Shown: one piece after another, positions 1,294 through 32,671 of the stretch | How the letters are laid out: the number at the start of each line of letters is the position of its first letter | Numbering within the stretch: position 1 is the first letter of the stretch | From: an uncultured Bacteroidales bacterium | GTDB taxonomy: Bacteria > Bacteroidota > Bacteroidia > Bacteroidales > SZUA-534 | NCBI GenBank assembly: GCA_964424425.1 | Contig: CAYRJP010000001.1 | Coordinates: 9,782 to 42,452 of the forward strand | DNA: 32,671 bases | Direction of reading: 5' to 3' | Program-made: the position numbers and the translations under genes | Notes under the pieces: model-generated | The model's input: only the letters and a program-made list of their open reading frames with translations | Databases searched by the model: none | What the model was told of the DNA's origin: nothing

Positions 1294-4020
1294 TTACTTA
1301 CGAATATTTGCTTGAGCAGCAGCTAAACGTGCAATAGGCACACGGAACGGAGAGCAAGAAACATAATCCATTCCTACACCGTTACAAAACTCAACTGATG
1401 AAGGTTCTCCACCATGCTCACCACAGATACCTACTTTTAAATCGGCACGAGCATCTCTACCTTTTTTAGTTCCCATTTCAACCAACTGACCTACACCTGT
1501 TTGGTCAAGAACTTGGAAAGGATCGTTTTTCAAGATACCTTTTTCGATGTAAATAGGTAAGAATTTACCTGCATCATCACGAGAGTAACCGAATGTCATT
1601 TGAGTAAGGTCATTTGTTCCGAAAGAGAAAAACTCTGCTTTTTTAGCAATTTCATCGGCAGTTAAAGCTGCACGAGGAATTTCAATCATAGTTCCTACCA
1701 TATAATCAACTTCAACACCTTTTTCTTTCATCACCTCAGTTGCAACTCTGCGGATAATCTCCTCTTGCATTTCAAATTCTTTAACTGTTCCAATCAAAGG
1801 AACCATAATTTCAGGCTTAGGATTCAATCCTTTAGCTTTTAAGTTACAAGCAGCTTCAATAATTGCACGAGCTTGCATCTCGGTAATTTCAGGATAAGTA
1901 TTACCCAAACGACAACCTCTATGACCTAACATGGGGTTAAATTCGTGTAAAGATTCAACTTTTTCTTTAACTATTTTAACATCAACGCCCAGCTTTTCAG
2001 CCATTTCTTGTTGAGCTTCGGGTTCGTTTGGTGTAAATTCGTGCAATGGAGGGTCAAGTAAGCGAATAGTAACTCCAAAACCGTCCATAGCTTCAAGAAT
2101 ACCTTCGAAATCACCACGCTGAATAGGTAATAATTTATCCAAAGCCTTTTGACGACCGGCTAAATCATCGGCAAGAATCATTTCACGAACAGCCCAGATA
2201 CGCTCTCCTTCAAAGAACATATGCTCTGTACGACAAAGTCCGATACCTTTTGCTCCAAAATCGCGAGCTACCTGAGCATCGTGAGGAGTATCAGCATTTG
2301 TACGAACATACATTCTTGTATATTTATCAGCTAAATCCATTATTTTACCAAAGTTACCCGAAAGTTGAGGAGTAATTGTTCCTACTTTTCCTTCGTAAAC
2401 TTCACCGGTAGTTCCATTTAAACTCATCCAGTCACCTTCTTTGAAAGTAACTCCTTTGATTGTCATTGTGCGAGCTTTATAATCAACAGCTACATCGCCG
2501 GCTCCCGACACACAACATTTTCCCATACCGCGAGCAACTACTGCAGCGTGAGAAGTCATACCTCCGCGAGCTGTAAGAATACCTTCAGCAGCATGCATTC
2601 CACGTAAATCTTCGGGAGAAGTTTCAATACGAACAAGAACAACTTTTTCACCTTTAGCAGCCCACTCTTCAGCTTCATCAGCAAAGAAAACCACACGACC
2701 TGTTGCTGCTCCCGGTGAAGCAGGAAGACCTTTTGTCAAAGTTCTTGCAGAAACAATAGCTTCTTTTTCAAAAACAGGATGTAATAATTCATCTAATTTA
2801 TTTGGGTCTTGACGCAATAATGCTGTTTTTTCGTCAATCATTCCCTCTTGTAACATTTCTACTGCAATACGCACCATAGCTGCTCCTGTGCGTTTCCCAT
2901 TTCGTGTTTGAAGCATCCATAATTTACCGTCTTGAATAGTAAATTCAAGATCTTGCATATCTTTATAATGATTTTCAAGTTTATTTTGAACATCAAATAA
3001 TTCTTTATAAGCATTTGGCATTGTTTCTTCCAACGAAGGATATTTTGAAGCTCTCTCCTCTTCAGATACTCCTTGCATTTTAGCCCAACGACGCGAACCT
3101 TCAAGAGTGATTTCTTGTGGTGTACGAACACCTGCCACAACATCTTCACCCTGAGCATTAATTAAATACTCTCCATTGAAAATATTTTCGCCTGTAGCGG
3201 CATCACGAGAAAAAGCAACACCTGTAGCAGAGTTATCACCCATGTTACCATAAACCATTGCTTGAACATTAACAGCAGTTCCCCATTCTCCTGGTATTCC
3301 TTCTAACTGACGATAGAGAATGGCACGCTCTGTATTCCAAGAATCAAACACAGCACAAACAGCTCCCCAAAGTTGCTCCCATGGGTCTGTCGGGAAATCT
3401 TTACCTGTTTGATTTTTTACAACAACCTTAAATAGTTTAACTAACTCTTGTAAATCTTCAACAGTAAAATCAGTATCTGACTTGTATCCTTTTTGCTCTT
3501 TAATTTTATCCATCTCTATTTCGAACGGGTCGTGCTCACCTTTTTCGGCTGCAACACCCATTACAACATCACCATACATTTGAATAAAGCGACGATATGA
3601 ATCCCAAGCAAAACGAGGATTACCTGATTTTTCGGCTACTATTTTAACTGCATCATCATTCATTCCCAGATTCAACACAGTATCCATCATACCGGGCATT
3701 GATACTCTTGCTCCTGAACGAACAGAAACCAATAAAGGGAATGCCTCTCCCTTAGAACCGAATTTTGCATTCATTACTTTCTCGGTATTCGCAATTCCCG
3801 CTTCTACATCCGCTTTAATTAAATCAACCACTGCATCTCTACCCAACTCATTATATTCGGTACAAACTTCGGTTGTAATTGTAAATCCGGCAGGTACCGG
3901 AACTCCAATTAAATTCATCTCTGCAAGGTTAGCTCCCTTTCCGCCCAACAGATTCTTCATATCTGCTCTACCTTCGGCTTTTCCGTTTCCAAAAGTATAA
4001 ACACGTTTTTTCTGTGTCAT
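1294..4020 (-). CDS. ppdK: pyruvate, phosphate dikinase
   Basis: 908 aa. Phosphohistidine motif [16 protein letters not shown], ...RTNADTP..., [16 protein letters not shown](E)P. Full-length PPDK architecture. Confidence 0.97.
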
Positions 4021-4054
4021 AATAATTAATTTTTAAATTATTTTCATATCATAT

Positions 4055-4080
4055 AAAACATTGTCACTAAACAATGTTTT
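4055..4080 (-). promoter_or_regulatory. perfect 10-bp hairpin in the ppdK 5' leader
   Basis: AAAACATTGT (4055-4064) / ACAATGTTTT (4071-4080) with 6-nt loop, 35-60 nt upstream of the ppdK ATG and immediately downstream of the candidate -7 box. Confidence 0.5.
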
Positions 4081-4089
4081 TTAGCAGAA

Positions 4090-4097
4090 CAAAATTA
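4090..4097 (-). promoter_or_regulatory. candidate Bacteroidota -7 promoter box (TAnnTTTG) for ppdK
   Basis: Plus strand CAAAATTA = minus strand TAATTTTG, an exact match to the TAnnTTTG consensus, about 70 nt upstream of the ppdK start. Confidence 0.4.
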
Positions 4098-4181
4098 AAA
4101 TATTTTAACTGATTTCAAGTAAGATTTTTTAAAATATTTACTCTATGCAACACAACTATAAATAAAAAAACATTTATCAAA

Positions 4182-4198
4182 TAGATTTCTTAAAATTT
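4182..4198 (+). promoter_or_regulatory. 17-mer TAGATTTCTTAAAATTT, copy 1 (begins with near-consensus -7 box TAGATTTC)
   Basis: Identical to 5418-5434. Lies inside the dyad AAATAGAT (4179-4186) / ATCTATTT (4202-4209), 91 nt upstream of the lipoprotein ATG. Confidence 0.45.
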
Positions 4199-4288
4199 AA
4201 TATCTATTTTTAGAATATAAATCACCAATATGCGTTACTTTATATAAGTAAATAACATTATTTTAAACAATTAACACCTTAATTTATT

Positions 4289-5140
4289 ATGAAAAACATT
4301 GTAATCTTAGTTTTTATTGCTTTTATGTTCAGTATGTGTACTTCAAATCAAAAAGCAAAAGAAGAACTTTTAACAAAAAACGACAGTCTTCAAAGATTGG
4401 TAATCAACAAAGATTCTGCACTATATGCAGTTATTAATACTTTTAATGAGATTGAAGATAATTTGCAATCTATTAAGGAAAAGGAAAATATAATATCATC
4501 AACTGCTCAAGATGCAGAAGACAACCGCTCAAGAGAGCAAAAAATAAATGATGATATAAATATGATTTATAACTTAATGAAAGAGAATAAAAATAAAGTT
4601 AGATATCTGCAAAGACAACTAAAGAATGCTAAAATTAAAAATAAAGATTTAGAAAACACTATTAAAAATCTTCAAGAGAGATTAGCTGAGAAAAATGAAG
4701 AGATTCTTAATTTACGCCGCTCTCTTTTAGATATGAATCTTAAAATTGATGAACTTACTTATTCTATGGACTCTTTAAACTTTGATATTCAGGTTAAATC
4801 GGAAATTATAAAAGCTCAAGAAGAAGACCTTAATACCGGTTATTATCTGTTTGGCACAACCAAAGAACTTAAAGATTTACAAATTATAAATAATAAAGGT
4901 AGTTTTTTAGGCACAAAAAAACTAAATCAAGATTTTGATAAAGACCATTTTACAAAAATTGACATAAGAAACCAAAAAACTTTTGTTTTTAATGATACAA
5001 AAAAGATAAAAATTATAACTTCACATCCATCAGGCAGTTATACTATTTATGGAGAAAAGCCTGTTGATAGCTTAGTTATTAATAATATTGATGATTTTTG
5101 GAGTATCTCAAAATATCTGGTAATAATGATTAATAAATAA
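4289..5140 (+). CDS. coiled-coil lipoprotein, function unknown
   Basis: N-terminus MKNIVILVFIAFMFSMC has a signal peptide plus lipobox Cys. About 150 aa of K/E/N/L-rich heptad-like sequence follows, then a small globular C-terminal domain (...GYYLFGTTKEL...ITSHPSGSYTIYG...). Confidence 0.75.
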   Translation: MKNIVILVFIAFMFSMCTSNQKAKEELLTKNDSLQRLVINKDSALYAVINTFNEIEDNLQSIKEKENIISSTAQDAEDNRSREQKINDDINMIYNLMKENKNKVRYLQRQLKNAKIKNKDLENTIKNLQERLAEKNEEILNLRRSLLDMNLKIDELTYSMDSLNFDIQVKSEIIKAQEEDLNTGYYLFGTTKELKDLQIINNKGSFLGTKKLNQDFDKDHFTKIDIRNQKTFVFNDTKKIKIITSHPSGSYTIYGEKPVDSLVINNIDDFWSISKYLVIMINK

Positions 5141-5162
5141 TTTTAAATTCAAGAATCTATCT

Positions 5163-5265
5163 AAAAAGTAGTCATTACGAACAAAAGAAATAAATTTCTT
5201 AGCTGATAACAGTATTTTTTTCAAACAAATTACTGCATATCTCACTTTCGTAATGACTATTTTTT
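5163..5265 (+). repeat. 19-bp long-range inverted repeat enclosing 65 nt (structured terminator or small structured RNA candidate)
   Basis: 5163-5181 pairs with 5247-5265: 18 Watson-Crick pairs plus one G.T, including the perfect 12-mer AGTCATTACGAA / TTCGTAATGACT. Nested hairpin AAGAAAT / ATTTCTT at 5185-5200. The right arm runs into a T7 tract (5260-5266). The repeat starts 23 nt after the lipoprotein stop. Confidence 0.55.
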
Positions 5266-5417
5266 TATTCTTAGACAGTTTTATAAAAATATTAGATATC
5301 ATAAACAAAAATTACAGCTACATTACCACTATAAAAACACTACTTTTACTATTTTATTAACTCTTATAATAATTACATTAACTATTTTCTTGATAATTTA
5401 AAAAATCTAAATTATAT

Positions 5418-5434
5418 TAGATTTCTTAAAATTT
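5418..5434 (+). promoter_or_regulatory. 17-mer TAGATTTCTTAAAATTT, copy 2 (candidate promoter core of the 5450 gene)
   Basis: Identical to 4182-4198. Its 5' half is the right arm of hairpin AAATCTAA (5403-5410) / TTAGATTT (5417-5424). It ends 15 nt before the ATG at 5450. Confidence 0.45.
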
Positions 5435-5449
5435 CAGATAACTAACTCA

Positions 5450-6544
5450 ATGTCGTTACAACAATTGTTATTACAAAAATTTGATACAACTCATGAAAAT
5501 TTTTTTATGAGTATATATCCTGATTTTAAAAGATATATCAATATAAATTTTGGTAACGGTCACAATTATTTTTCGGTATTACCCAAAACAAATTGTTATA
5601 TTAACGATCCAAATCCCGAGGTAATTGATTTTTACAAAAATATTTCTGATGCCAATTTACTATCTGAATTAAATAAAATCAGTGATGCATGGCTGTTATT
5701 AGGGCATTTCAGCAAATTATCGGCAAAAGAAATTTATATCTCTTTTGAAGATTATATAAACAATATAATAACTTCCGAAGATATTAAATATATGGTGCAA
5801 GCCATTATTTTTATGAATATCAATAACGATGCTTTTAATTTATTATTTAATAAAGATTTTATTATAAGTATTGATTTATTTACCAAATCATTAATTAATA
5901 ATACCGTAAATCAACTAAAAAAGATAAAAAGCATTACAGATATTTCTCAATCTACACAAAATGAGTTTGAAATTATAATAGAAACCGGTCTCAGAAGAGG
6001 TTTTTTTGAACATTTTCAAAATTTAATAAATCTTCAAAACACAGGACTTATTGACTGTATATCAGACATTAAAAGGTGTTCTATTTGGTTCTTTTTAGGA
6101 AAAACATCAAAAGGAAATAAAATAGTTTATGACGATGATAATAATTTAAAATGTCAATACAGCGGGAAGTCTTCAAATTCTATTTCGTTAAAGTCTATTA
6201 TCGAGAAATTTGAATCTTACGAAATAAAAGAGTTATTTAAAAGAACAACTTTTTATAACTCATCTATTACCAAATTTATAGATGATATTAATATAAAAGA
6301 AGATGATGTGATAATTGCCGATTTCAGAACCAACAAACAATACACCCCTATTCAAAGTGATAATATTTATTTTAACGATATCATTTGTTCTATAAGTTTA
6401 CTTATTGCATCTAATTATAATTGGATTTGTTATTTTAACAGTAAAGTTTTATTTGACAAAATAAAAGATAAGAGTGATTTTATTTTGCTTAATAATGCTG
6501 ATGAATATATTTTATTACCTTCAAAAATAAAAATGCCCACTTAA
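5450..6544 (+). CDS. hypothetical protein, Dam (D12 class) methyltransferase-like fold with degenerate catalytic motif
   Basis: 364 aa, extremely AT-rich (8 G+C in nt 5821-5880). Collinear with recalled E. coli Dam motifs: NINFGNGHNYF (vs EPFVGAGSVF), CYINDPNPEVIDFYKNI (vs YILADINSDLISLYNIV), FFLGKTSKGN...QYSGK (vs FLYLNRYGYNG...NVPFG), VIIADFRTNKQY (vs VVYCDPPYAPL). Confidence 0.45.
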   Translation: MSLQQLLLQKFDTTHENFFMSIYPDFKRYININFGNGHNYFSVLPKTNCYINDPNPEVIDFYKNISDANLLSELNKISDAWLLLGHFSKLSAKEIYISFEDYINNIITSEDIKYMVQAIIFMNINNDAFNLLFNKDFIISIDLFTKSLINNTVNQLKKIKSITDISQSTQNEFEIIIETGLRRGFFEHFQNLINLQNTGLIDCISDIKRCSIWFFLGKTSKGNKIVYDDDNNLKCQYSGKSSNSISLKSIIEKFESYEIKELFKRTTFYNSSITKFIDDINIKEDDVIIADFRTNKQYTPIQSDNIYFNDIICSISLLIASNYNWICYFNSKVLFDKIKDKSDFILLNNADEYILLPSKIKMPT

Positions 6545-6583: not shown

Positions 6584-7969
<1,386 letters not shown>

Positions 7970-25446: not shown

Positions 25447-25965
25447 TTACTGTGAATCAGCGTTGTTTTGTCTTTTTTCTTGCGACTGATTATGGGTATC
25501 TGATTGTTGTTTTTGTTTTATGTTTCGTCTTCGATAAGATCTTCTTTTAGTTTGTTTACCTGCTTGTTTGTTTTCGGAAATTTCTTTTTCGTGAGAATTC
25601 TCTTTAAGTTCATCTTTATTTTTACTTAAAGGTTTATTCTTTTTTACTTCATTCTTTATGTTTTGTGTTTTTTTATTTTTTTCTCTTTTTAAGAATCTTA
25701 TCTCTTTCTCAAAAGTTGAGTTATACTTACTTATTGTTGTTGCAACATCGTCGCTCAAATTACTGAGATATGCCCGTGTCACTTTTTGATTGTGCGATAT
25801 TCTGAAATAATTCACAATAGACATCACTAATGCGGCTACTGCTATTACAAGAATTAGCAGTATTACAATTTGCATGTTTTCAGCATTTCCTGTATTTGAA
25901 GTTTGTGCAAATATATTTTTTGATATAATAATATATGTAATTAAGAAAAAAAGTTTTTTTATCAT
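25447..25965 (-). CDS. small membrane protein with signal peptide, one TM helix and a polybasic low-complexity tail
   Basis: MIKKLFFLITYIIISKNIFA|QT signal-like N-terminus, TM segment IVILLILVIAVAALVMSIV, then about 100 aa rich in K/R/N/Q/E. Starts 17 nt downstream of mgtE. Confidence 0.6.
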   Translation of the reverse strand: MIKKLFFLITYIIISKNIFAQTSNTGNAENMQIVILLILVIAVAALVMSIVNYFRISHNQKVTRAYLSNLSDDVATTISKYNSTFEKEIRFLKREKNKKTQNIKNEVKKNKPLSKNKDELKENSHEKEISENKQAGKQTKRRSYRRRNIKQKQQSDTHNQSQEKRQNNADSQ

Positions 25966-25982: not shown

Positions 25983-27344
25983 TTATGAAAAATAAGAAAA
26001 AAATATTTGACCTATCCAAAAATAGATAAATAGCCCTGTCACATCGTTAGTTGTTGTGATAAATGGTCCTGTTGCCAAAGCGGGGTCTATTTTTATTTTA
26101 TTAAGAGCCAAAGGAACAAATGTTCCGAACAGCGAAGAGAATATTATTACCGAAAACAGTGCGGTGCTTACCGAAAATGTAAGTGCATAGGAATCGCTGG
26201 TAAGGAAATTGTAAATAAAAGCAAGTAATCCTAAAAACAATCCTGTAACTATCGCTACACTCAATTCTTTTAGTAGTTTTTTCATTGTAGTTTCAAGTCC
26301 CAGTGTTTTGTTTGCCAACCCTTGCACTATAATTGACGATGACTGAATACCAACATTTCCGCCGGTAGCGGTAATCATAGGAATAAAAAAAGCCATTGCG
26401 GGATAAAGACTTATTTCATCGCCGAAGTTTCCCAACACTCGTGCCGACAATGTTCCGCCAAATAGCCCGATTAACAGCCACGGAACTCTTGCTCGCGTAA
26501 GTTGAAAAACATTATCGGAAGCCTCAACATCGCTACTGATACCCGAAATCATCTGATAATCTTTTTCGGCTTCTTCTTTTATCACATCCACGACATCGTC
26601 GATGGTAATTCGCCCTTTGAGTCTGCCTATGCTGTCAACAACCGGAAGTGCCACAAGGTCGTATTTATCCATAATATTTGCAACTTCCTCTGACTTGGTA
26701 TCGGTTTTTACCATTATAATATCGGTATCGCAAATATCTTTAATATGTGTATCGCTTGAAGCAATAAGCAATTTTTTTAAAGGCAGAGTTCCTTTCAGCA
26801 TCTCACTATCGTCAACCACATATACAAAAAAGATATCGTCAACATCTTCGGCTTGTTTACGAATCTCTTCCATACATTTTGATACTGTCCAATTTTCGTT
26901 GACAGAAATAAGTTCGGTAGCCATTAATCCACCGGCAGTATCTTCATCGTAGCTCAACAAATCGACAATATCGCCCGCTTGCTCTACATCACTTACGTGA
27001 GATAATACTTCCTCCTGCTTTTCTTCGGGCAGCTCTCCGATAACATCGGCAGCATCGTCGGAATCCATATTATCAATAAATACCGATGCAATTTCTTTAC
27101 TTGACAAATGTTCAAGAAATTGTTCACGCACATCTTCTTCAAGTTCAACAAGCACATCGGCAGCATCTTCTTTGCCCAATTTTGAGTAAACATAATGGGC
27201 TTCATCAATTGTTAACTCATCAAAAACCTCCGCAATATCGGCAGGATGCAACTCTTTGATAAGTTCACGAACAATTTTATCGTCTTGCGATGCTATCGAC
27301 TCTTTTAATTTGTCAAGAAAATCTCGCGTTAATTCAAAATGCAT
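25983..27344 (-). CDS. mgtE: magnesium transporter MgtE
   Basis: MgtE N-domain (acidic helices), two CBS-like repeats and a C-terminal TM domain (...GGNVGIQSS..., ...ATGPFITTTNDVTGL...). I place the start at Met-14 (ATG 27342-27344, MHFELTRDFL...), which removes the overlap with rsmA. Confidence 0.93.
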   Translation of the reverse strand: MHFELTRDFLDKLKESIASQDDKIVRELIKELHPADIAEVFDELTIDEAHYVYSKLGKEDAADVLVELEEDVREQFLEHLSSKEIASVFIDNMDSDDAADVIGELPEEKQEEVLSHVSDVEQAGDIVDLLSYDEDTAGGLMATELISVNENWTVSKCMEEIRKQAEDVDDIFFVYVVDDSEMLKGTLPLKKLLIASSDTHIKDICDTDIIMVKTDTKSEEVANIMDKYDLVALPVVDSIGRLKGRITIDDVVDVIKEEAEKDYQMISGISSDVEASDNVFQLTRARVPWLLIGLFGGTLSARVLGNFGDEISLYPAMAFFIPMITATGGNVGIQSSSIIVQGLANKTLGLETTMKKLLKELSVAIVTGLFLGLLAFIYNFLTSDSYALTFSVSTALFSVIIFSSLFGTFVPLALNKIKIDPALATGPFITTTNDVTGLFIYFWIGQIFFSYFS

Positions 27345-27348
27345 TATT

Positions 27349-28140
27349 CTAACTGTTTTTATTTTCCGATAACATATTTTCAATTAAAACTGTCAGCTCA
27401 ATAAATTGTTCAACAGAAAGCTGCTCCGGTCGTTTTTTGAAAATATCATCTTGCGACTTCAAATTTAATAAAATTGGCTTTAAACTGTTAGATAAAGTTT
27501 TTCGTCGCTGATTAAAACTTGTTTTTACTATTTTAAAAAACAATTTTTCGTCACATGAAAGTTTATCTCTGTTATTACGTTTAATACGTATTACTGCCGA
27601 TTTAACTTTCGGTGGCGGACTAAATACATGCTCGTGAACAGTAAACAAATACTCTACGGTATAAAATGTTTGCAACAACACACTTAGTATTCCGTATGCT
27701 TTGGTTCCGGGATTTGATGCTATTCGCTCAGCTACCTCTTTTTGAAACATACCCACAAGCTGTGGAACTTTATCACGATTTTCTATTGCCTTAAAAAGTA
27801 TTTGACTTGATATATTGTAAGGAAAATTACCTATTATGTATATGTTCTCGGTAAAATATTTTTGTAAATCAAGTTTTAAGAAATCGCCTTCGATTATATT
27901 TTTTGTTAAATCAAAATAATTATCTTTTAAATATGCAACAGAATCTCGGTCAATCTCTACCACATATAATTTATCGGTATATTTTTTCAATAAATGTTCG
28001 GTAAGCACTCCCATGCCGGGTCCTATCTCCAACACATACCCGTCTATCTCTCCGATGAAACTATCGGCTATGTTTTTTGCTATATTTTTATCGGTCAAAA
28101 AATGTTGCCCAAGATGTTTTTTTGCTCTAACTTTATCCAT
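27349..28140 (-). CDS. rsmA: 16S rRNA (adenine1518/1519-N6)-dimethyltransferase
   Basis: ...[14 protein letters not shown]...[16 protein letters not shown]..., [13 protein letters not shown]. KsgA/RsmA signatures. Confidence 0.95.
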
Positions 28141-28227
28141 TTAATAAAATTTGCCGCAATTTACATCAATTTATTTTAACCTTAAAAATTATTCAAAAAG
28201 ATTAAAGATTATAATATTATATTTATT

Positions 28228-28668
28228 AATAGTTCGTTAAATTTTTAGTCACAAATACTCAAATATATTGATTTATAAATAGTTAAATAATACAAAAATC
28301 ACACTGCCACCTATTTAATAATCAGCACATTACACATATATACAATGAACTATTAATTTATGAAAATGTCATTTTAAATATAACATCATGTATTTCACTT
28401 AACTCATCATTCATTATCAAAAAGCATTTATATGTAATTACTTTTTCGTATCTTGTAATTTTAAACTTATGTATATAATAAGCATTGCTTAATATTTAAA
28501 AATTGTAGCTAATTTATAATTTCTATCTCGTGAATAAAAAAACACAAAATATAATAGATAAAGAATTTAGTTTGTATTTTTTACTTTAAATCACTTTTAA
28601 TTAAAGCATTTCAAAATATTATTTTTTTTATTTATTAACTGTTTAACCTAATTTCACAACGAACTATT
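28228..28668. repeat. 11-bp perfect inverted repeat pair bracketing 419 bp of the leader of the 28742 operon
   Basis: AATAGTTCGTT (28228-28238) and AACGAACTATT (28658-28668). A third, direct copy of the core, CAATGAACTATT, is at 28343-28354 (compare CAACGAACTATT at 28657-28668). Confidence 0.55.
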
Positions 28669-28741
28669 GTAATATAAGATTATTTGAAATAAAATCTTAT
28701 TAAAACACATAATTATTTTTTATAATAAAATATTAACTAAT

Positions 28742-29269
28742 ATGACAAACAAAAAAAAAATTAAGAAATCTAAATTAATTTATACTGATTTAAATTTCGA
28801 TTTTTATGAATATGAAAAAATACTTTACCAATTATTTAACAATAAACTTGACAAGGAAATAGGTATTTCAATATCTCAAAATAGGTTTTCTTTTAACATC
28901 CCAGTTGAATACTTATATATTAAAGCTTTAAAGACAGAACAAAATAAAATTGTTGCTGCACTATCATTTAACACTAAACTTTACAAATATAAACAATTTG
29001 AAAAATTCGGATTTATCTTACCCCCTGAATTAGTTAATTCTAGCATTGAAGTAATAATTGCTTTTTCAATAGATAAAACAAATACATTTTATCTACTAAA
29101 TAAAATTAGAAATATTTTTAAAAATACCTTAATAAAATACAAAAAAACCAGCATAATTGCTACTGCTTCTGAGCATTTAATAAACTTTTATAAACGTATT
29201 GGATTTGAAGTAATTAATAAAAAAGTATATAAAGAAACAAATAAATTTTTATTACTATACAAAAAATAA
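28742..29269 (+). CDS. GNAT-fold-like acyltransferase, atypical (no recognisable Q/RxxGxG/A CoA loop)
   Basis: 175 aa. C-terminal GNAT motif-B-like ...IIATASEHLINFYKRIGFEVINKK. The preceding strand VIIAFSIDKTNTFYLLNKIR sits where the pyrophosphate-binding loop would be. Stop lies 2 nt before the next ATG. Confidence 0.5.
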   Translation: MTNKKKIKKSKLIYTDLNFDFYEYEKILYQLFNNKLDKEIGISISQNRFSFNIPVEYLYIKALKTEQNKIVAALSFNTKLYKYKQFEKFGFILPPELVNSSIEVIIAFSIDKTNTFYLLNKIRNIFKNTLIKYKKTSIIATASEHLINFYKRIGFEVINKKVYKETNKFLLLYKK

Positions 29270-29271
29270 TC

Positions 29272-30642
29272 ATGAAAGAAGATGTTTCTACTATTTTTAA
29301 AAAAGTAAGAAAAGCTCAATCCAGTCTAATGAGATTACATCAAAAAGAAATTGATGAACTTTGTGCTGCAATTATATGGGAAGCAGTTCAGGACGAATTT
29401 GTTAAAAAAATTACAAAATTATGTTTTAAAGAAACACAATTGGGAAATATACCAGATAAGATATACAAATTTCATAATAAACTTAGAGGTGTATTGTTTG
29501 AAATGCAAAGCGAAAAGTCTATAGACTTAATTCAGCATGACAAAAAAAAAGGGATAAAAATATTTGCTAAACCTGTTGGTGTTATTGTATCTTTATTACC
29601 ACTAACAATTCCTGACATATCTCCTTTTGTTAATGCTATTTCTGCTATTAAAGGAAGAAATGCTATCATTTTATCTCCACATCCAAAAGCTGTAAAAACA
29701 AATTCGTTAGCTGTTGGTAAAATTAAAGAAGTATTATTAAAACACAATATTCCTGAAAATTTAGTTTATACATTTAACAATATTTCTAAAGAATTTACAA
29801 ACAAACTAATGAAAACTGCAGATCTTGTATTGGCAACAGGAGGAAAAAAAATTATTAAAATTGCTCATAAATCAGGCACTCCTGTTTATGGAGCAGGACA
29901 GGGAAATTCTGTGTCAATAATTGATGAAACTGCTGACATAAACGATGCTGTCTCTAAAATAATAAAATCAAAAACATTTGATTTTGCAACCAGTTGTTCA
30001 TCAGAGAACTCTTGTATTGTTCAAGAAAATATTTACAATAAATTTATGGATTTAATGATTGAAAATGGTGCATATTTTTTAAATGCACAAGAAAAAGAAA
30101 AACTAAAAAAATGCTTATGGATAAATGGGAAGCTAAATCCAAATATTATTGCTAAATCTGCAAATAAAATTTCAAAATTTGCTGGTATTAATATACCTAA
30201 CAAAACTAAGATACTAATTGTAGAAGAAAGTGGTATTGGAGAACATTTCCCTTTTTCTGGTGAGAAATTATCAATTGTACTAACAATATATAAATATAAG
30301 TACTTTGAATCTGCTATAGATTTAGTAAACAAAATTACTAATTATCAAGGAGCTGGTCATTCTTGTGGAATTCACTCATTCAATGAAGATAATATTAATA
30401 AACTTAGTCAAAATGTAAATGTAAGCAGAATTACTATTAGACAACCCAATTCATTATCAAATAATGGCTCTTGGACAAATAATTTCACAATGTCAGTAAT
30501 TTTAGGATGCGGAACTTGGGGAGGAGGAATTTCAAATGATAATATCAACTGGAAACATATGATAAATTATACTAAAGTATCTTATCCAACAAAATCAAAG
30601 AAAGTTTCAGACCTTGAGTTGTTTGGTTTTAAAAACAAATAA
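29272..30642 (+). CDS. CoA-acylating aldehyde dehydrogenase, SucD (succinate-semialdehyde dehydrogenase, acylating)-like
   Basis: 456 aa. AKPVGVIVSLLPLTIP, AIKGRNAIILSPHPKA, LATGG, GAGQGNS, KTFDFATSCSSENSCIV (catalytic Cys context of the acylating SucD/AdhE-N/EutE class), ENGAYF, GAGHSCGIHS, LGCGTWGG. Collinear with my recollection of Clostridium kluyveri SucD. Confidence 0.8.
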   Translation: MKEDVSTIFKKVRKAQSSLMRLHQKEIDELCAAIIWEAVQDEFVKKITKLCFKETQLGNIPDKIYKFHNKLRGVLFEMQSEKSIDLIQHDKKKGIKIFAKPVGVIVSLLPLTIPDISPFVNAISAIKGRNAIILSPHPKAVKTNSLAVGKIKEVLLKHNIPENLVYTFNNISKEFTNKLMKTADLVLATGGKKIIKIAHKSGTPVYGAGQGNSVSIIDETADINDAVSKIIKSKTFDFATSCSSENSCIVQENIYNKFMDLMIENGAYFLNAQEKEKLKKCLWINGKLNPNIIAKSANKISKFAGINIPNKTKILIVEESGIGEHFPFSGEKLSIVLTIYKYKYFESAIDLVNKITNYQGAGHSCGIHSFNEDNINKLSQNVNVSRITIRQPNSLSNNGSWTNNFTMSVILGCGTWGGGISNDNINWKHMINYTKVSYPTKSKKVSDLELFGFKNK

Positions 30643-30661
30643 AATTTAAATATTAAAAATA

Positions 30662-31945
30662 ATGAATAAATATATTTTACATGAATGGTGTATTCAGAAT
30701 GATTTCGTTCATAATACTATATCAAAAGCTAACGGAATCTTTTTTTGGGATAATACTGGTAAAAAATATTTCGATATGTCATCTCAATTTGTTAATTTAA
30801 ATTTGGGTTATAATAATCAAAATGTCATAAATGCTATTATCAAACAAGCTAACAGCTTACCTTATATTGGATCATCATTCTATTTAGATATTCGAATTCA
30901 GGCAGCACGAAAAATAATTGATATTGCTCCCAAAAATATGAGTAAAGTATTTTTTACTAACTCTGGGGCAGAATCAATTGAGAATTCAATTAAGATTTCA
31001 AAACAATTCTCAGGTAAAAACAAAATAATTTCAACATATAATTCATATCATGGAGCCTCATATGGAGCAGCAAATCTTTCTGGTGAGTCACGAAGGTTTG
31101 CTGTAGAACCTGGAATTCCTGGTTTTATAAAATTCTTCAATCCTAATAAATACAGACCTTTTTGTGAGAAACTTACTGAACCTGAATTAACAAATTTACA
31201 TTTAAAATATCTAGAAGAATTAATAATATCAGAAAATAATGAAGATATTGCAGCTATATTTTTGGAAAGTATTATTGGATCAAATGGTGTTATTATTCCT
31301 CCTTACGGATATTTGAAAGGAATTCGTAAACTATGTGATAAATACAATATCTTGATGGTATGTGATGAAGTTATGACTGGTTTTGGAAGAACCGGAAAAT
31401 GGTTTGCTTTTGAACATTGGGGAATACAACCAGATATAATTACTATTGCAAAAAGTATAACAGCAGGATACATCCCTTTTGGTGGTGTAATTGTATCAGA
31501 AAAAATTGAAAATTATTTTAACACTAATTTTTTAAGTTGTGGCTTAACTAATAATTCACACCCAATCGGTTGTGCAGCCACTGTTGCAGCAATTTCTGAA
31601 TATAATAATAAAAAACTCATTAATAATTCAAAAAATCTGGGAGATATACTAACTCTTAGTCTTAAAGAACTTAAGTCAAAATATTCTTGTATTGGTGATG
31701 TAAGATCTATTGGCTTATTTGGTGGAATTGAATTTGTAAATTCACCAGAAAAAAAAGATCCTATTACAATTAAAAATCTAGACACAAAACAATCTATGAA
31801 ATTTATTTTGAAAATATTAAAAGAAAATGGTATATGGACTTTTTTCAAGAATAATGTTTTAATTATAGCTCCCCCACTAATAATACGACAACAAGAACTA
31901 CAAGAATCTTTACAAATAATAGATAAAGTAATATCTAAAATTTGA
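30662..31945 (+). CDS. class-III (omega-type) PLP-dependent aminotransferase
   Basis: 427 aa. NSGAESIENSIKISK, YHGAS.GA, DEVMTGFGRTGKWFAFEHWGIQPDIITIAKSITAGYIPFGG (PLP lysine in IAKS), C-terminus ...LIIAPPLII.... Confidence 0.88.
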   Translation: MNKYILHEWCIQNDFVHNTISKANGIFFWDNTGKKYFDMSSQFVNLNLGYNNQNVINAIIKQANSLPYIGSSFYLDIRIQAARKIIDIAPKNMSKVFFTNSGAESIENSIKISKQFSGKNKIISTYNSYHGASYGAANLSGESRRFAVEPGIPGFIKFFNPNKYRPFCEKLTEPELTNLHLKYLEELIISENNEDIAAIFLESIIGSNGVIIPPYGYLKGIRKLCDKYNILMVCDEVMTGFGRTGKWFAFEHWGIQPDIITIAKSITAGYIPFGGVIVSEKIENYFNTNFLSCGLTNNSHPIGCAATVAAISEYNNKKLINNSKNLGDILTLSLKELKSKYSCIGDVRSIGLFGGIEFVNSPEKKDPITIKNLDTKQSMKFILKILKENGIWTFFKNNVLIIAPPLIIRQQELQESLQIIDKVISKI

Positions 31946-32185
31946 AAATGGTTTCTAAAATTAGTAATTTCTTAAAAATATCTCATTGTTGTTAATCTAA
32001 TAAGAACATAAGCTCTGCTGGAAAACATTATTAGTAATCAAATTAATCTCATATGATAAAGAAAAAACTCTATAAAGGATATTACATAATATTTTTTTGC
32101 TCAAAAAAAATCATTTGTAGTAACATATCCGATACTCATTTTATTTTTAGTGTTCCTTCAGAATTATAAAACTAACCTGAAATAC

Positions 32186-32218
32186 TAAAAAAGCGAAACT
32201 TCACAGTTCCGCTTTTTT
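32186..32218 (-). terminator. intrinsic terminator of gcvP (also the only clear hairpin downstream of the plus-strand operon)
   Basis: AGCGAAAC (32192-32199) / GTTCCGCT (32206-32213), flanked by A6 and T6. The single non-Watson-Crick position is G.U on the minus-strand RNA but A.C on the plus-strand RNA, so the hairpin is better formed for gcvP. Confidence 0.7.
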
Positions 32219-32240
32219 GTATCTAAAATGAAATTACTTT

Positions 32241-32671
32241 CTATTGATACTCACTAATCGGAGCACAGGTGCAAACAAGATTTCTATCGCCGTAACCGTC
32301 ATCAACTCGTGCTACTGCAGGCCAAAACTTATTAAATGTCACCCAATCCAACGGATAAGCTGCACGCAATCTGCTGTATTTGTGGTCCCAATTATCATCA
32401 CTACATTCCAATGCCGTATGTGGAGCATTTTTAAGCAAATTATCGCTTGCATCGGAAACACCGTTTTTAATTTCAATAATCTCTTCCATTATTGAAGCCA
32501 TTGCTTCAGCAAATCTGTCAAGTTCTTCTTTGCTCTCACTTTCGGTAGGCTCTACCATAAGTGTTTCGTGAACAGGAAACGAAAGTGTAGGTGCATGATA
32601 ACCGTAATCCATCAAGCGTTTTGCCACATCAACAGTTTCCACGCCGTATTCCTGACGGAAATGGCGACAAT
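32241..32671 (-). CDS. gcvP: glycine dehydrogenase (decarboxylating), C-terminal part (5' end outside window)
   Basis: ...[43 protein letters not shown]... The frame stays open to the window edge (...[14 protein letters not shown]...). The tracked start at 32642 is an internal GTG. Confidence 0.92.

What the first reader, a model, noticed from the sequence alone, without database searches (positions are those of the whole stretch)
28742..31945. Compact AT-rich operon: atypical GNAT-like protein + SucD-like acylating aldehyde dehydrogenase + omega-aminotransferase, not matching a canonical pathway
Seen in sequence: three same-strand ORFs separated by 2 nt and 19 nt, wedged between the housekeeping genes rsmA and gcvP. 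They follow a 600-nt non-coding leader, and no transporter or regulator is present. The middle protein has the catalytic-Cys context of CoA-acylating aldehyde dehydrogenases (SCSSENS, plus AIKGRNAIILSPHPKA, GAGQGNS, GAGHSCGIHS, LGCGTWGG), not that of hydrolytic NAD-ALDHs. The last protein has the class-III transaminase core DEVMTGFGRTGKWFAFEHWG..PDI.TIAKS. Established chemistry: an acylating ALDH interconverts an acyl-CoA and an aldehyde, and an omega-transaminase interconverts an aldehyde and a primary amine. Inference: the pair forms a direct thioester <-> aldehyde <-> amine route. Candidates include succinyl-CoA/succinate semialdehyde/GABA, malonyl-CoA/malonate semialdehyde/beta-alanine, and sulfoacetyl-CoA/sulfoacetaldehyde/taurine. 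This route would bypass the usual hydrolytic semialdehyde dehydrogenase and keep the thioester energy. The 175-aa GNAT-like first gene could N-acylate the amine, analogous to EctB/EctA, where a class-III aminotransferase is paired with a GNAT of about 170-190 aa. I cannot place this triad in any operon I know, so it is the best candidate for an undescribed small metabolic or biosynthetic system in this window.
Basis: partly seen in the sequence, partly recalled or inferred. Interest (0 to 1): 0.7.

Follow-up and report, generated by a model that had tools for sequence, protein, structure and literature searches.

The report
Borrowed beta-alanine cassette plus orphan acetyltransferase
An uncultured Bacteroidota bacterium carries a small AT-rich gene island: two genes resembling a Clostridia module that most likely turns beta-alanine into an aldehyde and then a CoA thioester, preceded by a gene from a tiny unstudied acetyltransferase-like family, making it a new variant of a known pathway rather than a new kind of system.

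Summary
Three real, tightly spaced same-strand ORFs (175, 456 and 427 aa) lie between rsmA and gcvP, behind a 601-nt non-coding, 17% GC leader.

The last two genes form an amine -> aldehyde -> acyl-CoA pair, but the pair is not undescribed. It is a diverged copy of an ALDH->aminotransferase cassette common in anaerobic Clostridia (48-57% identity, same order and spacing). There it sits in reductive pyrimidine-degradation clusters, and the same ALDH clade fills the IolA slot of myo-inositol operons. This points to beta-alanine / malonate semialdehyde / malonyl-CoA. Taurine / sulfoacetaldehyde is the main rival: the best characterised relatives are BkToa and SauS, but the curated SauS cut-off is not reached.

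The first gene has a GNAT fold and belongs to a family of about eight known proteins. Its role is unknown. The triad was found only in this one lineage.

Two caveats. The ALDH has Ile where 114 of 115 homologs have the oxyanion-hole Asn. The aminotransferase has lost an Arg conserved in at least 97% of homologs.

Verdict: a horizontally acquired, strongly diverged variant of a known catabolic module with an orphan partner. Interest is moderate.

The parts
28141..28741 (.). Non-coding AT-rich leader between rsmA and the operon. The rsmA-proximal half is probably native; the island's left edge probably lies somewhere around 28.4-28.7 kb.
   Evidence: GC 0.171. No ORF and no TAnnTTTG motif. No Rfam hit at E<=1. 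20 strain SNPs, 16 of them between 28154 and 28410.
28742..29269 (+). 175-aa member of a very small GNAT-fold family. Acyl donor and acceptor are unknown.
   Evidence: Pfam Acetyltransf_10 scores only 18 bits, below the 23.6 cut-off. It found only itself in the word-seeded search of 5.8 billion proteins. Exhaustive HMMER over 1.84 billion representatives found 6 small relatives, E 2e-8 to 8e-4. The AF2 model has pLDDT 72.9, with block means above 70 from residue 51 and mostly 84-95 from residue 71. Foldseek matches SpeG-type and other GNATs with TM 0.51-0.64 and probability 1.0. Family-invariant residues are N77, Q85, E87, G90, F91, E103, T141, Y150 and G154.
29272..30642 (+). 456-aa CoA-acylating aldehyde dehydrogenase from the sister clade of SauS. 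It is most likely derived from a malonate-semialdehyde dehydrogenase (acylating). Catalytic Cys242 and His363 are present, but the oxyanion-hole Asn is replaced by Ile113.
   Evidence: NCBIfam SauS 456.5 bits, below the 600 cut-off; AdhE-N 364; EutE 325. PDB SucD 8cei 309 bits. Closest homologs are 47-51% identical, and all that carry an organism name are Bacillota. Homologs sit in iol operons and Pyd clusters. I113 stands against N in 114 of 115 homologs and in PDB SucD and AdhE.
30662..31945 (+). 427-aa class-III aminotransferase of the PydD/Toa family (beta-alanine or taurine : 2-oxoglutarate). PLP Lys264 is present; the family-conserved Arg127 is replaced by Asn.
   Evidence: Pfam Aminotran_3 308 bits. 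NCBIfam PRK06062 472.6 bits against a cut-off of 472. PDB 6jix BkToa 372 bits against 235 for the next hit. Closest homologs are 50-57% identical, in Bacillota. R127N and 26 other departures from columns conserved in at least 97% of homologs.
31946..32240 (.). Convergent intergenic region between the aminotransferase stop and the gcvP stop.
   Evidence: GC 0.234. 9 variable alignment columns between strains, mostly at 32149-32231. No flanking direct or inverted repeats beyond low-complexity matches.
27349..28140 (-). rsmA (16S rRNA dimethyladenosine transferase), the native left flank.
   Evidence: Pfam RrnaAD on the identical contig gene. rsmA-mgtE synteny is kept in most of 80 Bacteroidota genomes, none of which has the triad.
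32241..32671 (-). 3' end of gcvP (glycine dehydrogenase), the native right flank.
   Evidence: 949-aa GDC-P gene on contigs L001 and L002.

Best explanation
The three genes form one operon on an AT-rich island of about 3.5-4 kb that only this uncultured Bacteroidota lineage carries between rsmA and gcvP.

Genes 2 and 3 are a horizontally acquired, strongly diverged copy of a two-gene cassette that is common in anaerobic Clostridia. In the inferred reaction sequence, the PydD/Toa-family aminotransferase moves the amino group of beta-alanine onto 2-oxoglutarate, giving malonate semialdehyde and glutamate. The SauS/SucD-like acylating dehydrogenase then oxidises the aldehyde on its catalytic cysteine and releases it as a CoA thioester: malonyl-CoA, or acetyl-CoA plus CO2 if the acyl-enzyme decarboxylates. 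The host would thus harvest nitrogen from beta-alanine and keep the carbon as a thioester.

Shown: the family assignments, the operon structure, the foreign composition, and the Clostridial contexts of the relatives. Inferred: the substrate in this host, the direction of flux, and whether the Ile113 enzyme is still efficient.

Gene 1 is a GNAT-fold protein from a tiny unannotated family. It is separated from the ALDH start codon by only 2 nt. My best guess, held with low confidence, is that it is an N-acyltransferase working on a pathway-related amine or using the acyl-CoA the ALDH makes. Nothing here demonstrates that.
For: 1. Operon and reality of the ORFs.
2. Foreign composition: GC3 is 0.14-0.15 for all three genes against 0.27-0.32 for rsmA, mgtE and gcvP.
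3. Absence elsewhere: none of 80 Bacteroidota rsmA loci has the genes.
4. Closest relatives: the nearest ALDH and AT relatives are 47-57% identical, and every listed hit that carries an organism name is Bacillota. They are adjacent in the same order with gaps of 18-59 nt, against 19 nt here.
5. Context of the relatives. In Natronincola and Anaerovirgula the pair lies next to an NCS1 nucleobase permease, dihydropyrimidinase (532 bits, above cut-off), PreA dihydropyrimidine dehydrogenase (628 bits) and an M20 amidohydrolase. Two further ALDH homologs, including the top hit, occupy the IolA (malonate-semialdehyde dehydrogenase) slot of iol operons whose IolC, IolD, IolE and IolG pass equivalog cut-offs. 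All five ALDH-homolog context types examined point to malonate semialdehyde or beta-alanine; none contains sulfonate genes.
6. Published precedent: Pyd clusters with a beta-alanine aminotransferase (PydD) plus a malonic semialdehyde dehydrogenase are described in the literature (PMC7332683).
7. Catalytic residues: Cys242, His363 and the PLP Lys are intact.
8. Selection: strain SNPs in the ALDH are 4 synonymous to 1 non-synonymous.
9. GNAT fold of gene 1.
Against: 1. The best experimentally characterised relatives act on sulfonates: BkToa (372 bits) and the SauS model (top NCBIfam hit). Beta-alanine and taurine are isosteres, so homology cannot separate them.
2. The window ALDH has Ile113 in place of the Asn of the xTNP motif. 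That Asn is present in 114 of 115 homologs and in SucD and AdhE structures. It corresponds, by my offset mapping, to the oxyanion-hole N138 of Cphy1178 (PMC4762007). The enzyme may be slow or may have changed function.
3. Both enzymes depart from 17-18% of columns conserved in at least 97% of homologs. These include the AT change R127N, where BkToa and the homologs have Arg, so specificity may have shifted.
4. There is no Pyd gene, iol gene, transporter or regulator in the 32.7-kb window or the 7 kb beyond it.
5. The GNAT gene is absent from every Clostridial cassette examined, so its link to the pathway rests on operon position alone.
Confidence: 0.5

Rival explanations
1. Taurine nitrogen scavenging. 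The aminotransferase is a taurine:2-oxoglutarate aminotransferase (Toa) and the ALDH an acylating sulfoacetaldehyde dehydrogenase (SauS-like), giving sulfoacetyl-CoA. The GNAT-fold protein would then discharge the otherwise dead-end sulfoacetyl-CoA by transferring the acyl group to an acceptor, freeing CoA. It would stand in for the SauCD/SqwKL ligases of known pathways.
For: BkToa (6jix) is by far the best solved-structure match, 372 bits against 235 for the next. SauS is the top NCBIfam family for the ALDH, 456.5 bits. Many database homologs are named taurine-2-oxoglutarate transaminase or sulfoacetaldehyde dehydrogenase. Acylating sulfo-aldehyde dehydrogenases feeding CoA ligases are established (PMC10413351; PMC11489063). 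A CoA-recycling step is missing from the operon, which would give the GNAT a logical job.
Against: The SauS score is below the curated 600-bit cut-off. So are the scores of the Clostridial homologs (549-580 bits) that sit in iol and pyrimidine clusters, so those database names are probably transferred by similarity. No sulfonate transporter, Xsc, IseG, SauCD/SauT or TauE was found nearby. A weak TauE hit on a 219-aa ORF beyond gcvP belongs to a signal-peptide protein with few transmembrane segments and is probably spurious. None of the five homolog contexts examined is sulfonate-related.
Confidence: 0.2
2. Biosynthetic direction. Malonyl-CoA is reduced to malonate semialdehyde and aminated to beta-alanine. 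This would replace PanD or feed the GNAT, which would N-acylate beta-alanine to a small product.
For: Both reactions are reversible in principle (established chemistry of acylating ALDHs and transaminases). Malonyl-CoA is universally available. The GNAT gene is close-packed with the ALDH gene (2-nt gap). From my memory of SSAT, which is a lead and not a test, the GNAT has a Glu on beta4 (E103) and a Tyr in an 'INFYKRIG' motif (Y150) like polyamine N-acetyltransferases, and SpeG is the top Foldseek match.
Against: Every ALDH-AT cassette context examined for the relatives is catabolic. The ALDH oxyanion-hole substitution would hamper the thermodynamically harder reductive direction just as much. 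No PanC or pantothenate genes are nearby. The rest of the genome was not available, so presence or absence of panD is unknown.
Confidence: 0.12
3. Neofunctionalised or decaying island. After transfer the cassette drifted and now acts on a different, possibly non-anionic amine. One example is a protect-transaminate-oxidise route in which the GNAT first acetylates a diamine. Alternatively the island is on its way to loss.
For: 17-18% of near-invariant positions have changed in both enzymes. The ALDH carries N113I at the oxyanion-hole position. The AT carries R127N; Arg is specific to the Toa/PydD family, while an unrelated amine transaminase (6s54) has Asn there. No family member keeps the GNAT motif Q/RxxGxG/A. 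The triad exists in one lineage only.
Against: All three ORFs are intact on 5 independent assemblies. In the strain comparison the ALDH has 4 synonymous and 1 non-synonymous change. GC3 is uniformly low and the genes are close-packed, as expected for an expressed operon. No substrate prediction can be derived from the changed residues with the tools used here.
Confidence: 0.13

Closest known systems
[quoted passage not shown] 1 legend, which cites Yin et al. 2019 and Zhu et al. 2020)
   Same: It has the same two enzyme families, the same gene order (ALDH then AT) and similar spacing. The nearest homologs of both window proteins sit in such clusters.
   Different: The window has no pydA, pydB or pydC, and no permease or regulator. 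The host is a Bacteroidota, not a Clostridium. Identity is only 48-57%. A catalytic Asn is lost. An extra GNAT-fold gene sits in front.
Taurine and sulfoacetate enzymes: Toa of Bifidobacterium kashiwanohense (PDB 6jix) and SauS of Cupriavidus necator and Bilophila wadsworthia (PMC10413351)
   Same: These are the best experimentally characterised relatives of the aminotransferase and the ALDH. The chemistry is the same: amine to aldehyde to acyl-CoA on a C2/C3 acid isostere.
   Different: The SauS equivalog cut-off is not reached (456 against 600 bits). There is no SauT/SauCD, Xsc, TauF or IseG, and no sulfonate transporter. The contexts of the nearest relatives concern malonate semialdehyde, not sulfonates.
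IolA step of myo-inositol catabolism (malonate semialdehyde to acetyl-CoA)
   Same: ALDHs of the same clade (the top hit P0003, and P0029) occupy the IolA position in Clostridial iol operons.
   Different: Canonical IolA/MmsA belongs to the classical ALDH family and decarboxylates its substrate. The window has no iol genes.
EctA/EctB (ectoine) and ArgA/ArgD or AstA/AstC/AstD logic: a GNAT paired with a class-III aminotransferase
   Same: A small acyltransferase is encoded beside an omega-aminotransferase.
   Different: EctB was not among the 25 best NCBIfam families for the aminotransferase. There is no EctC. The GNAT matches no curated family. The ALDH here is CoA-acylating, unlike AstD. The resemblance is one of logic only, recalled from general knowledge.
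SpeG/SSAT-type polyamine N-acetyltransferases (GNAT superfamily)
   Same: These are the best structural matches to the predicted fold (TM 0.57-0.61). A Glu on beta4 and a Tyr in the alpha4 'FY' motif are conserved in the orphan family.
   Different: Sequence identity is 7-11%. The pyrophosphate-binding Q/RxxGxG/A loop is absent. The Pfam gathering score is not reached.

Membership tests
CoA-acylating aldehyde dehydrogenases (SucD/EutE/AdhE-N/SauS type) | Full-length similarity to acylating rather than hydrolytic ALDHs | tested here: met
   NCBIfam scores: SauS 456, AdhE-N 364, EutE 325 bits; hydrolytic ALDH models score 61 bits or less. PDB: SucD 309, AcDH 285, AdhE 276 bits.
CoA-acylating aldehyde dehydrogenases (SucD/EutE/AdhE-N/SauS type) | Catalytic Cys, and the strictly conserved His that replaces the general-base Glu | tested here: met
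   C242 (ATSCS) and H363 (GHSCGIHS) are invariant in alignment A4. The role of the His is taken from PMC4762007.
CoA-acylating aldehyde dehydrogenases (SucD/EutE/AdhE-N/SauS type) | Oxyanion-hole Asn of the xTNP motif | tested here: not met
   The window protein has LTI (Ile113). 114 of 115 homologs have xTN, and SucD and AdhE structures have TNP. The equivalence to N138 of Cphy1178 comes from my offset mapping.
SauS, acylating sulfoacetaldehyde dehydrogenase (NCBIfam NF047625 equivalog) | Score at or above the curated 600-bit cut-off | tested here: not met
   456.5 bits. Clostridial homologs score 549-580 bits, also below the cut-off.
SauS, acylating sulfoacetaldehyde dehydrogenase (NCBIfam NF047625 equivalog) | Neighbourhood with a sulfoacetate-CoA ligase, a sulfonate transporter or a C-S lyase | tested here: not met
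   None in the window or on contig L001.
Class-III aminotransferase, PydD/Toa subfamily (NCBIfam PRK06062) | Pfam PF00202 and the subfamily cut-off | tested here: met
   PF00202 308 bits. PRK06062 472.6 bits against a cut-off of 472, so only marginally met. Homologs score 574-600 bits.
Class-III aminotransferase, PydD/Toa subfamily (NCBIfam PRK06062) | PLP lysine and the DEV motif | tested here: met
   TIAKS begins at residue 261 (Lys264) and DEVMTGFGRTGK at 235.
Class-III aminotransferase, PydD/Toa subfamily (NCBIfam PRK06062) | Family-conserved Arg in YRSYHG (role not established here) | tested here: not met
   R127N. Arg is present in at least 97% of 119 homologs and in BkToa.
Reductive pyrimidine-degradation (Pyd) gene cluster | Adjacent pydA, pydB and pydC (dihydropyrimidine dehydrogenase, dihydropyrimidinase, ureidopropionase) | tested here: not met
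   These genes are present next to the homologs. They are absent from the window and its flanks.
GNAT acyltransferase superfamily | GNAT fold | tested here: met
   AF2 pLDDT 72.9 and pTM 0.70. Foldseek gives 392 PDB matches at E<=0.001, and the 50 listed are nearly all GNAT acetyltransferases.
GNAT acyltransferase superfamily | Pfam gathering score; acetyl-CoA pyrophosphate loop Q/RxxGxG/A | tested here: not met
   Acetyltransf_10 scores 18 bits against a cut-off of 23.6. No such loop is conserved in the 7-member alignment.
GNAT acyltransferase superfamily | Acyl-CoA-dependent acyl transfer | not testable with these tools
   This needs an enzyme assay.
Ectoine EctA/EctB pair | EctB-type DABA transaminase, EctA-type GNAT and an EctC neighbour | tested here: not met
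   No EctB model appears among the best 25 NCBIfam hits for the aminotransferase, and there is no NCBIfam hit at all for the GNAT. No third ect gene is present.

The most novel reading that the evidence does not exclude
The orphan GNAT-fold family could make a small N-acylated amine that 7TMR-DISM membrane sensors detect. Two of three informative family contexts place a member next to such a sensor, and one of those sensors is fused to a histidine kinase, a receiver domain and a LuxR-type DNA-binding domain. In this operon the diverged ALDH and aminotransferase would run biosynthetically and supply the amine (for example beta-alanine from malonyl-CoA). That would make the triad a new small-molecule or signal biosynthetic system in Bacteroidota.
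Probability: 0.06. Interest if true: 0.7.

Novelty: new variant of a known kind. Interest (0 to 1): 0.35.

Why it matters
If the main reading is right, a Bacteroidota has taken up a Clostridial nitrogen-scavenging module for beta-alanine or taurine. That is ecologically sensible but not surprising. Three by-products are more useful:

1. A large clade of Clostridial ALDHs, some labelled sulfoacetaldehyde dehydrogenase in public databases, is by context probably an acylating malonate-semialdehyde dehydrogenase.
2. The window enzyme is a natural oxyanion-hole Asn-to-Ile variant that could be tested directly.
3. A tiny uncharacterised GNAT-fold family has been delimited, with a possible link to 7TM sensors.

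Tried and rejected
- **Riboswitch or RNA element in the leader.** There were no Rfam matches at gathering score for the whole window, nor at E<=1 for 28100-28800.
- **Promoter and terminator scans.** These were uninformative: 39 sigma-70-like sites against 33 expected, and no Bacteroidota TAnnTTTG motif in the leader.
- **Mobile-element signatures.** There are no convincing direct or inverted repeats at the island edges, and no integrase or transposase in the window.
- **GNAT family on plasmids or viral contigs.** No tblastn hits in PLSDB and none in IMG/VR.
- **Metagenome scans for GNAT relatives.** The third gave one locus, L096.
- **Profile search of the GNAT family against PDB sequences.** Nothing significant.
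- **TauE/SafE sulfite exporter next to gcvP.** A 17.6-bit hit on a 219-aa protein with a signal peptide, a soluble domain and few transmembrane segments; rejected as spurious.
- **Empty-site comparison.** The nearest genomes share only 65% RsmA identity or less, and upstream synteny is not conserved, so no clean empty site could be shown.
- **Literature.** Yin 2019 (JBC), Zhu 2020 (AEM) and the BkToa structure paper are not held, so substrate-binding residues of Toa and PydD could not be checked.
- **ALDH changes K97I and K121N as loss of anion binding.** Rejected. K97 is merely shifted by one position, and SucD also has Asn at position 121.

Full report
**Observation**

They lie between rsmA (27349-28140, -) and the 3' end of gcvP (32241-, -). 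Upstream are mgtE and the S12-S7-EF-G / S10-spc-alpha ribosomal cluster. The 601-nt leader is 17% GC. It contains no ORF, no Rfam match and no Bacteroidota -7 motif. With the island's composition a stop is expected every 11 codons or so, which makes stop-free runs of 175, 456 and 427 codons very improbable (5e-8 to 8e-20). The longest run in 500 shuffles was 149 codons. The same arrangement, with an identical 175-aa product, occurs on five independent metagenome contigs from ENA, JGI and Logan.

**A foreign island**

GC3 is 0.14-0.15 for all three genes, against 0.27-0.32 for rsmA, mgtE and gcvP. A scan of GTDB species genomes with RsmA returned 80 Bacteroidota loci. The best RsmA identity was only 65%, so the host has no close sequenced relative. 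The rsmA-mgtE pair is conserved in most of these loci, but none contains any of the three genes. Between the strains represented by the contigs, variable sites are 1.8% in rsmA and 1.9% in gcvP. They are 0/528 in gene 1, 5/1371 in gene 2 and 3/1284 in gene 3. The island is therefore several-fold less diverse than its flanks, which suggests a recent spread or sweep. Leader SNPs cluster in the rsmA-proximal half, so the left edge of the island probably lies within the leader. No repeats or mobility genes mark the edges.

**Genes 2 and 3**

*Family assignments.* Gene 2 is a CoA-acylating ALDH. Its NCBIfam scores are SauS 456.5 bits (cut-off 600), AdhE-N 364 and EutE 325, while hydrolytic ALDH models score 61 bits or less. 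The best solved structure is SucD 8cei at 309 bits. Gene 3 is a class-III aminotransferase. It just reaches the PRK06062 subfamily cut-off (472.6 against 472). Its best solved relative by a wide margin is the taurine:2-oxoglutarate aminotransferase of B. kashiwanohense (6jix, 372 bits, against 235 for the next hit).

*Closest relatives.* The nearest relatives of both proteins are 47-57% identical, and every listed hit that carries an organism name is an anaerobic Bacillota. Many ALDH and AT hits appear to share a contig, judging by matching longest-contig lengths in the two lists.

*Neighbourhoods of six ALDH homologs:*
- Natronincola peptidivorans and Anaerovirgula multivorans have ALDH-AT followed by an NCS1 nucleobase permease, dihydropyrimidinase, PreA/PreT-type dihydropyrimidine dehydrogenase and an M20 amidohydrolase. 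This is a reductive pyrimidine-degradation cluster, whose end product is beta-alanine.
- Clostridium sp. Cult2 and [C.] ultunense have IclR-ALDH-AT-M20-ApbA-DUF997-SSF-M20-OPT.
- The top ALDH hit (Clostridiaceae 35-E11) and a second [C.] ultunense paralog sit in iol operons in the slot of IolA, the malonate-semialdehyde dehydrogenase. IolC, IolD, IolE and IolG there pass equivalog cut-offs.

All five context types point to malonate semialdehyde or beta-alanine, and none contains sulfonate genes. These Clostridial ALDHs score 549-580 bits on the SauS model, also below its cut-off. The clade is therefore a sister of SauS, and some of its members are probably misnamed in databases. A beta-alanine aminotransferase (PydD) plus a malonic semialdehyde dehydrogenase as an extension of Pyd clusters is already in the literature (PMC7332683).

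*Conclusion.* The pair is a known kind of module, here transferred into a Bacteroidota. The most likely chemistry is beta-alanine + 2-oxoglutarate -> malonate semialdehyde + glutamate, followed by malonate semialdehyde + CoA + NAD(P)+ -> malonyl-CoA (or acetyl-CoA + CO2). Taurine -> sulfoacetaldehyde -> sulfoacetyl-CoA remains a serious rival, because the substrates are isosteres and the only characterised relatives are sulfonate enzymes (PMC10413351).

**Caveats on function**

Against 119 homologs each, the window ALDH and aminotransferase differ at 17% and 18% of columns that are at least 97% conserved. Two changes stand out.

1. The ALDH has Ile113 in the xTNP motif. In 114 of 115 homologs, and in SucD, acetaldehyde dehydrogenase and AdhE structures, this residue is Asn. 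I mapped offsets using H387->H363, E357->E331 and H162->H137. On that mapping it is the N138 that Tuck et al. assign to the oxyanion hole and proton relay of an acylating ALDH (PMC4762007). The mapping is my inference.
2. The aminotransferase has Asn127 where BkToa and at least 97% of homologs have Arg (YRSYHG). An unrelated amine transaminase has Asn at that position. Whether this Arg binds the substrate's acid group could not be checked.

On the other side, the catalytic Cys242, His363 and the PLP Lys are intact. The ORFs are intact on all contigs, apart from a 1-nt indel four bases before the aminotransferase stop, which gives 431 instead of 427 aa in some strains. ALDH strain differences are 4 synonymous to 1 non-synonymous. 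The operon looks maintained, but its substrate or efficiency may have changed.

**Gene 1**

Pfam gives only a sub-threshold GNAT hit (18 bits against 23.6), and NCBIfam gives nothing. The word-seeded search of 5.8 billion proteins found only the protein itself. An exhaustive HMMER pass over 1.84 billion representatives found six proteins of 166-209 aa at E 2e-8 to 8e-4. A metagenome scan added one more. The seven-sequence alignment (A1, built before that member was found) has invariant N77, Q85, E87, G90, F91, E103, T141, Y150 and G154. It has no Q/RxxGxG/A loop.

AlphaFold2 on that alignment gives pLDDT 72.9, with 10-residue block means above 70 from residue 51 and mostly 84-95 from residue 71. 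Foldseek returns GNATs, led by SpeG, with TM 0.51-0.64. E103 on beta4 and Y150 in 'INFYKRIGF' resemble the Glu/Tyr pair of SSAT-type enzymes. That comparison comes from my memory of SSAT and is a lead, not a test.

None of the Clostridial cassettes has such a gene. Contexts of the other family members are mostly too short to read. In two of three informative cases the neighbour is a 7TMR-DISM membrane protein. In L096 this is a 728-aa 7TM-HisKA-HATPase-REC-LuxR fusion 34 nt downstream, on an integrative element. In L009/L010 it is a divergent DISMED2-like + 7TM protein. The third context (L099) has an unrelated soluble neighbour. Both Pfam hits are below gathering score.

The role of gene 1 is therefore open. 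Its 2-nt gap to the ALDH start codon is the only evidence tying it to the pathway.

**Comparison with known systems and verdict**

The system works like the PydD/MSDH end of pyrimidine catabolism, or like Toa/SauS. It is not a member of a Pyd cluster, an iol operon, a sau cluster or an ect cluster, because the defining neighbours are absent. It also fails the SauS equivalog cut-off, and one catalytic-residue test for acylating ALDHs. The claim of an undescribed pathway is not upheld for the pair. The triad itself is unique to one lineage, so conservation gives no support for a functional three-gene unit.

I rate it a new variant of a known kind, with moderate interest (0.35). The most novel reading not excluded, with probability about 0.06, is that the orphan GNAT family makes an N-acyl amine sensed by 7TM receptors, with the ALDH and aminotransferase supplying the amine.

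Noticed in passing
window 4021-6544: A second low-GC stretch (GC 0.16-0.26) lies between pyruvate phosphate dikinase (1294-4020, -) and enolase (6584-7939, -). It holds two + strand ORFs of 283 and 364 aa with no credible Pfam family. It may be another acquired island.
   Followed up: partly
L093 9001-10398; L097 8001-9389: Clostridial ALDHs of the same clade, one of them named 'sulfoacetaldehyde dehydrogenase (acylating)' in a public database, occupy the IolA slot of complete myo-inositol operons. They score below the SauS cut-off. They are probably acylating malonate-semialdehyde dehydrogenases, and the sulfoacetaldehyde name is probably wrong.
   Followed up: partly
L006 7033-17398; L098 7042-17398: A conserved Clostridial cluster reads IclR - ALDH - aminotransferase - M20 (ArgE/DapE family) - ApbA/PanE-like reductase - DUF997 + SSF symporter (PanF-like) - M20 - OPT. 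It looks like a catabolic cluster for a beta-alanine-containing compound such as pantothenate or a beta-alanyl peptide.
   Followed up: no
L096 7911-10728; L009 3-1553: Members of the orphan GNAT-fold family lie next to 7TMR-DISM-type membrane proteins. In L096 the neighbour is a 7TM-HisKA-HATPase-REC-LuxR(GerE) fusion on an element that also carries two integrases, a primase, ParA and a YafQ-like toxin. The Pfam 7TMR-DISM hits are weak (E 6e-4 and 9e-4).
   Followed up: partly
window 29608-29610 (ALDH residue 113): Ile replaces the Asn of the xTNP motif, the putative oxyanion-hole residue. Among 115 homologs with a recognisable motif, this is the only one without Asn. The residue is the same on all five contigs.
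   Followed up: yes
window 27349-32671 compared with L001, L002 and L004: Strain-level SNP density is about 5-fold lower in the three island genes (0-0.4%) than in the flanking rsmA and gcvP (1.8-1.9%) and the leader (3.3%). This suggests a recent spread or sweep of the island.
   Followed up: partly
window 31941: A 1-nt indel polymorphism lies four bases before the aminotransferase stop codon. It gives a 431-aa product in some strains (L001, L003, L005) and a 427-aa product here.
   Followed up: partly
window 25447-25965 (-): A 172-aa ORF between rpsL and mgtE has no Pfam or NCBIfam family. It is conserved on all contigs of this lineage.
   Followed up: no
window 25983-27383 (-): The mechanically listed mgtE ORF (TTG start, 466 aa) overlaps rsmA by 35 nt. 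Gene callers on the same sequence use a 453-aa product that starts downstream, so the true start is probably the later one.
   Followed up: no
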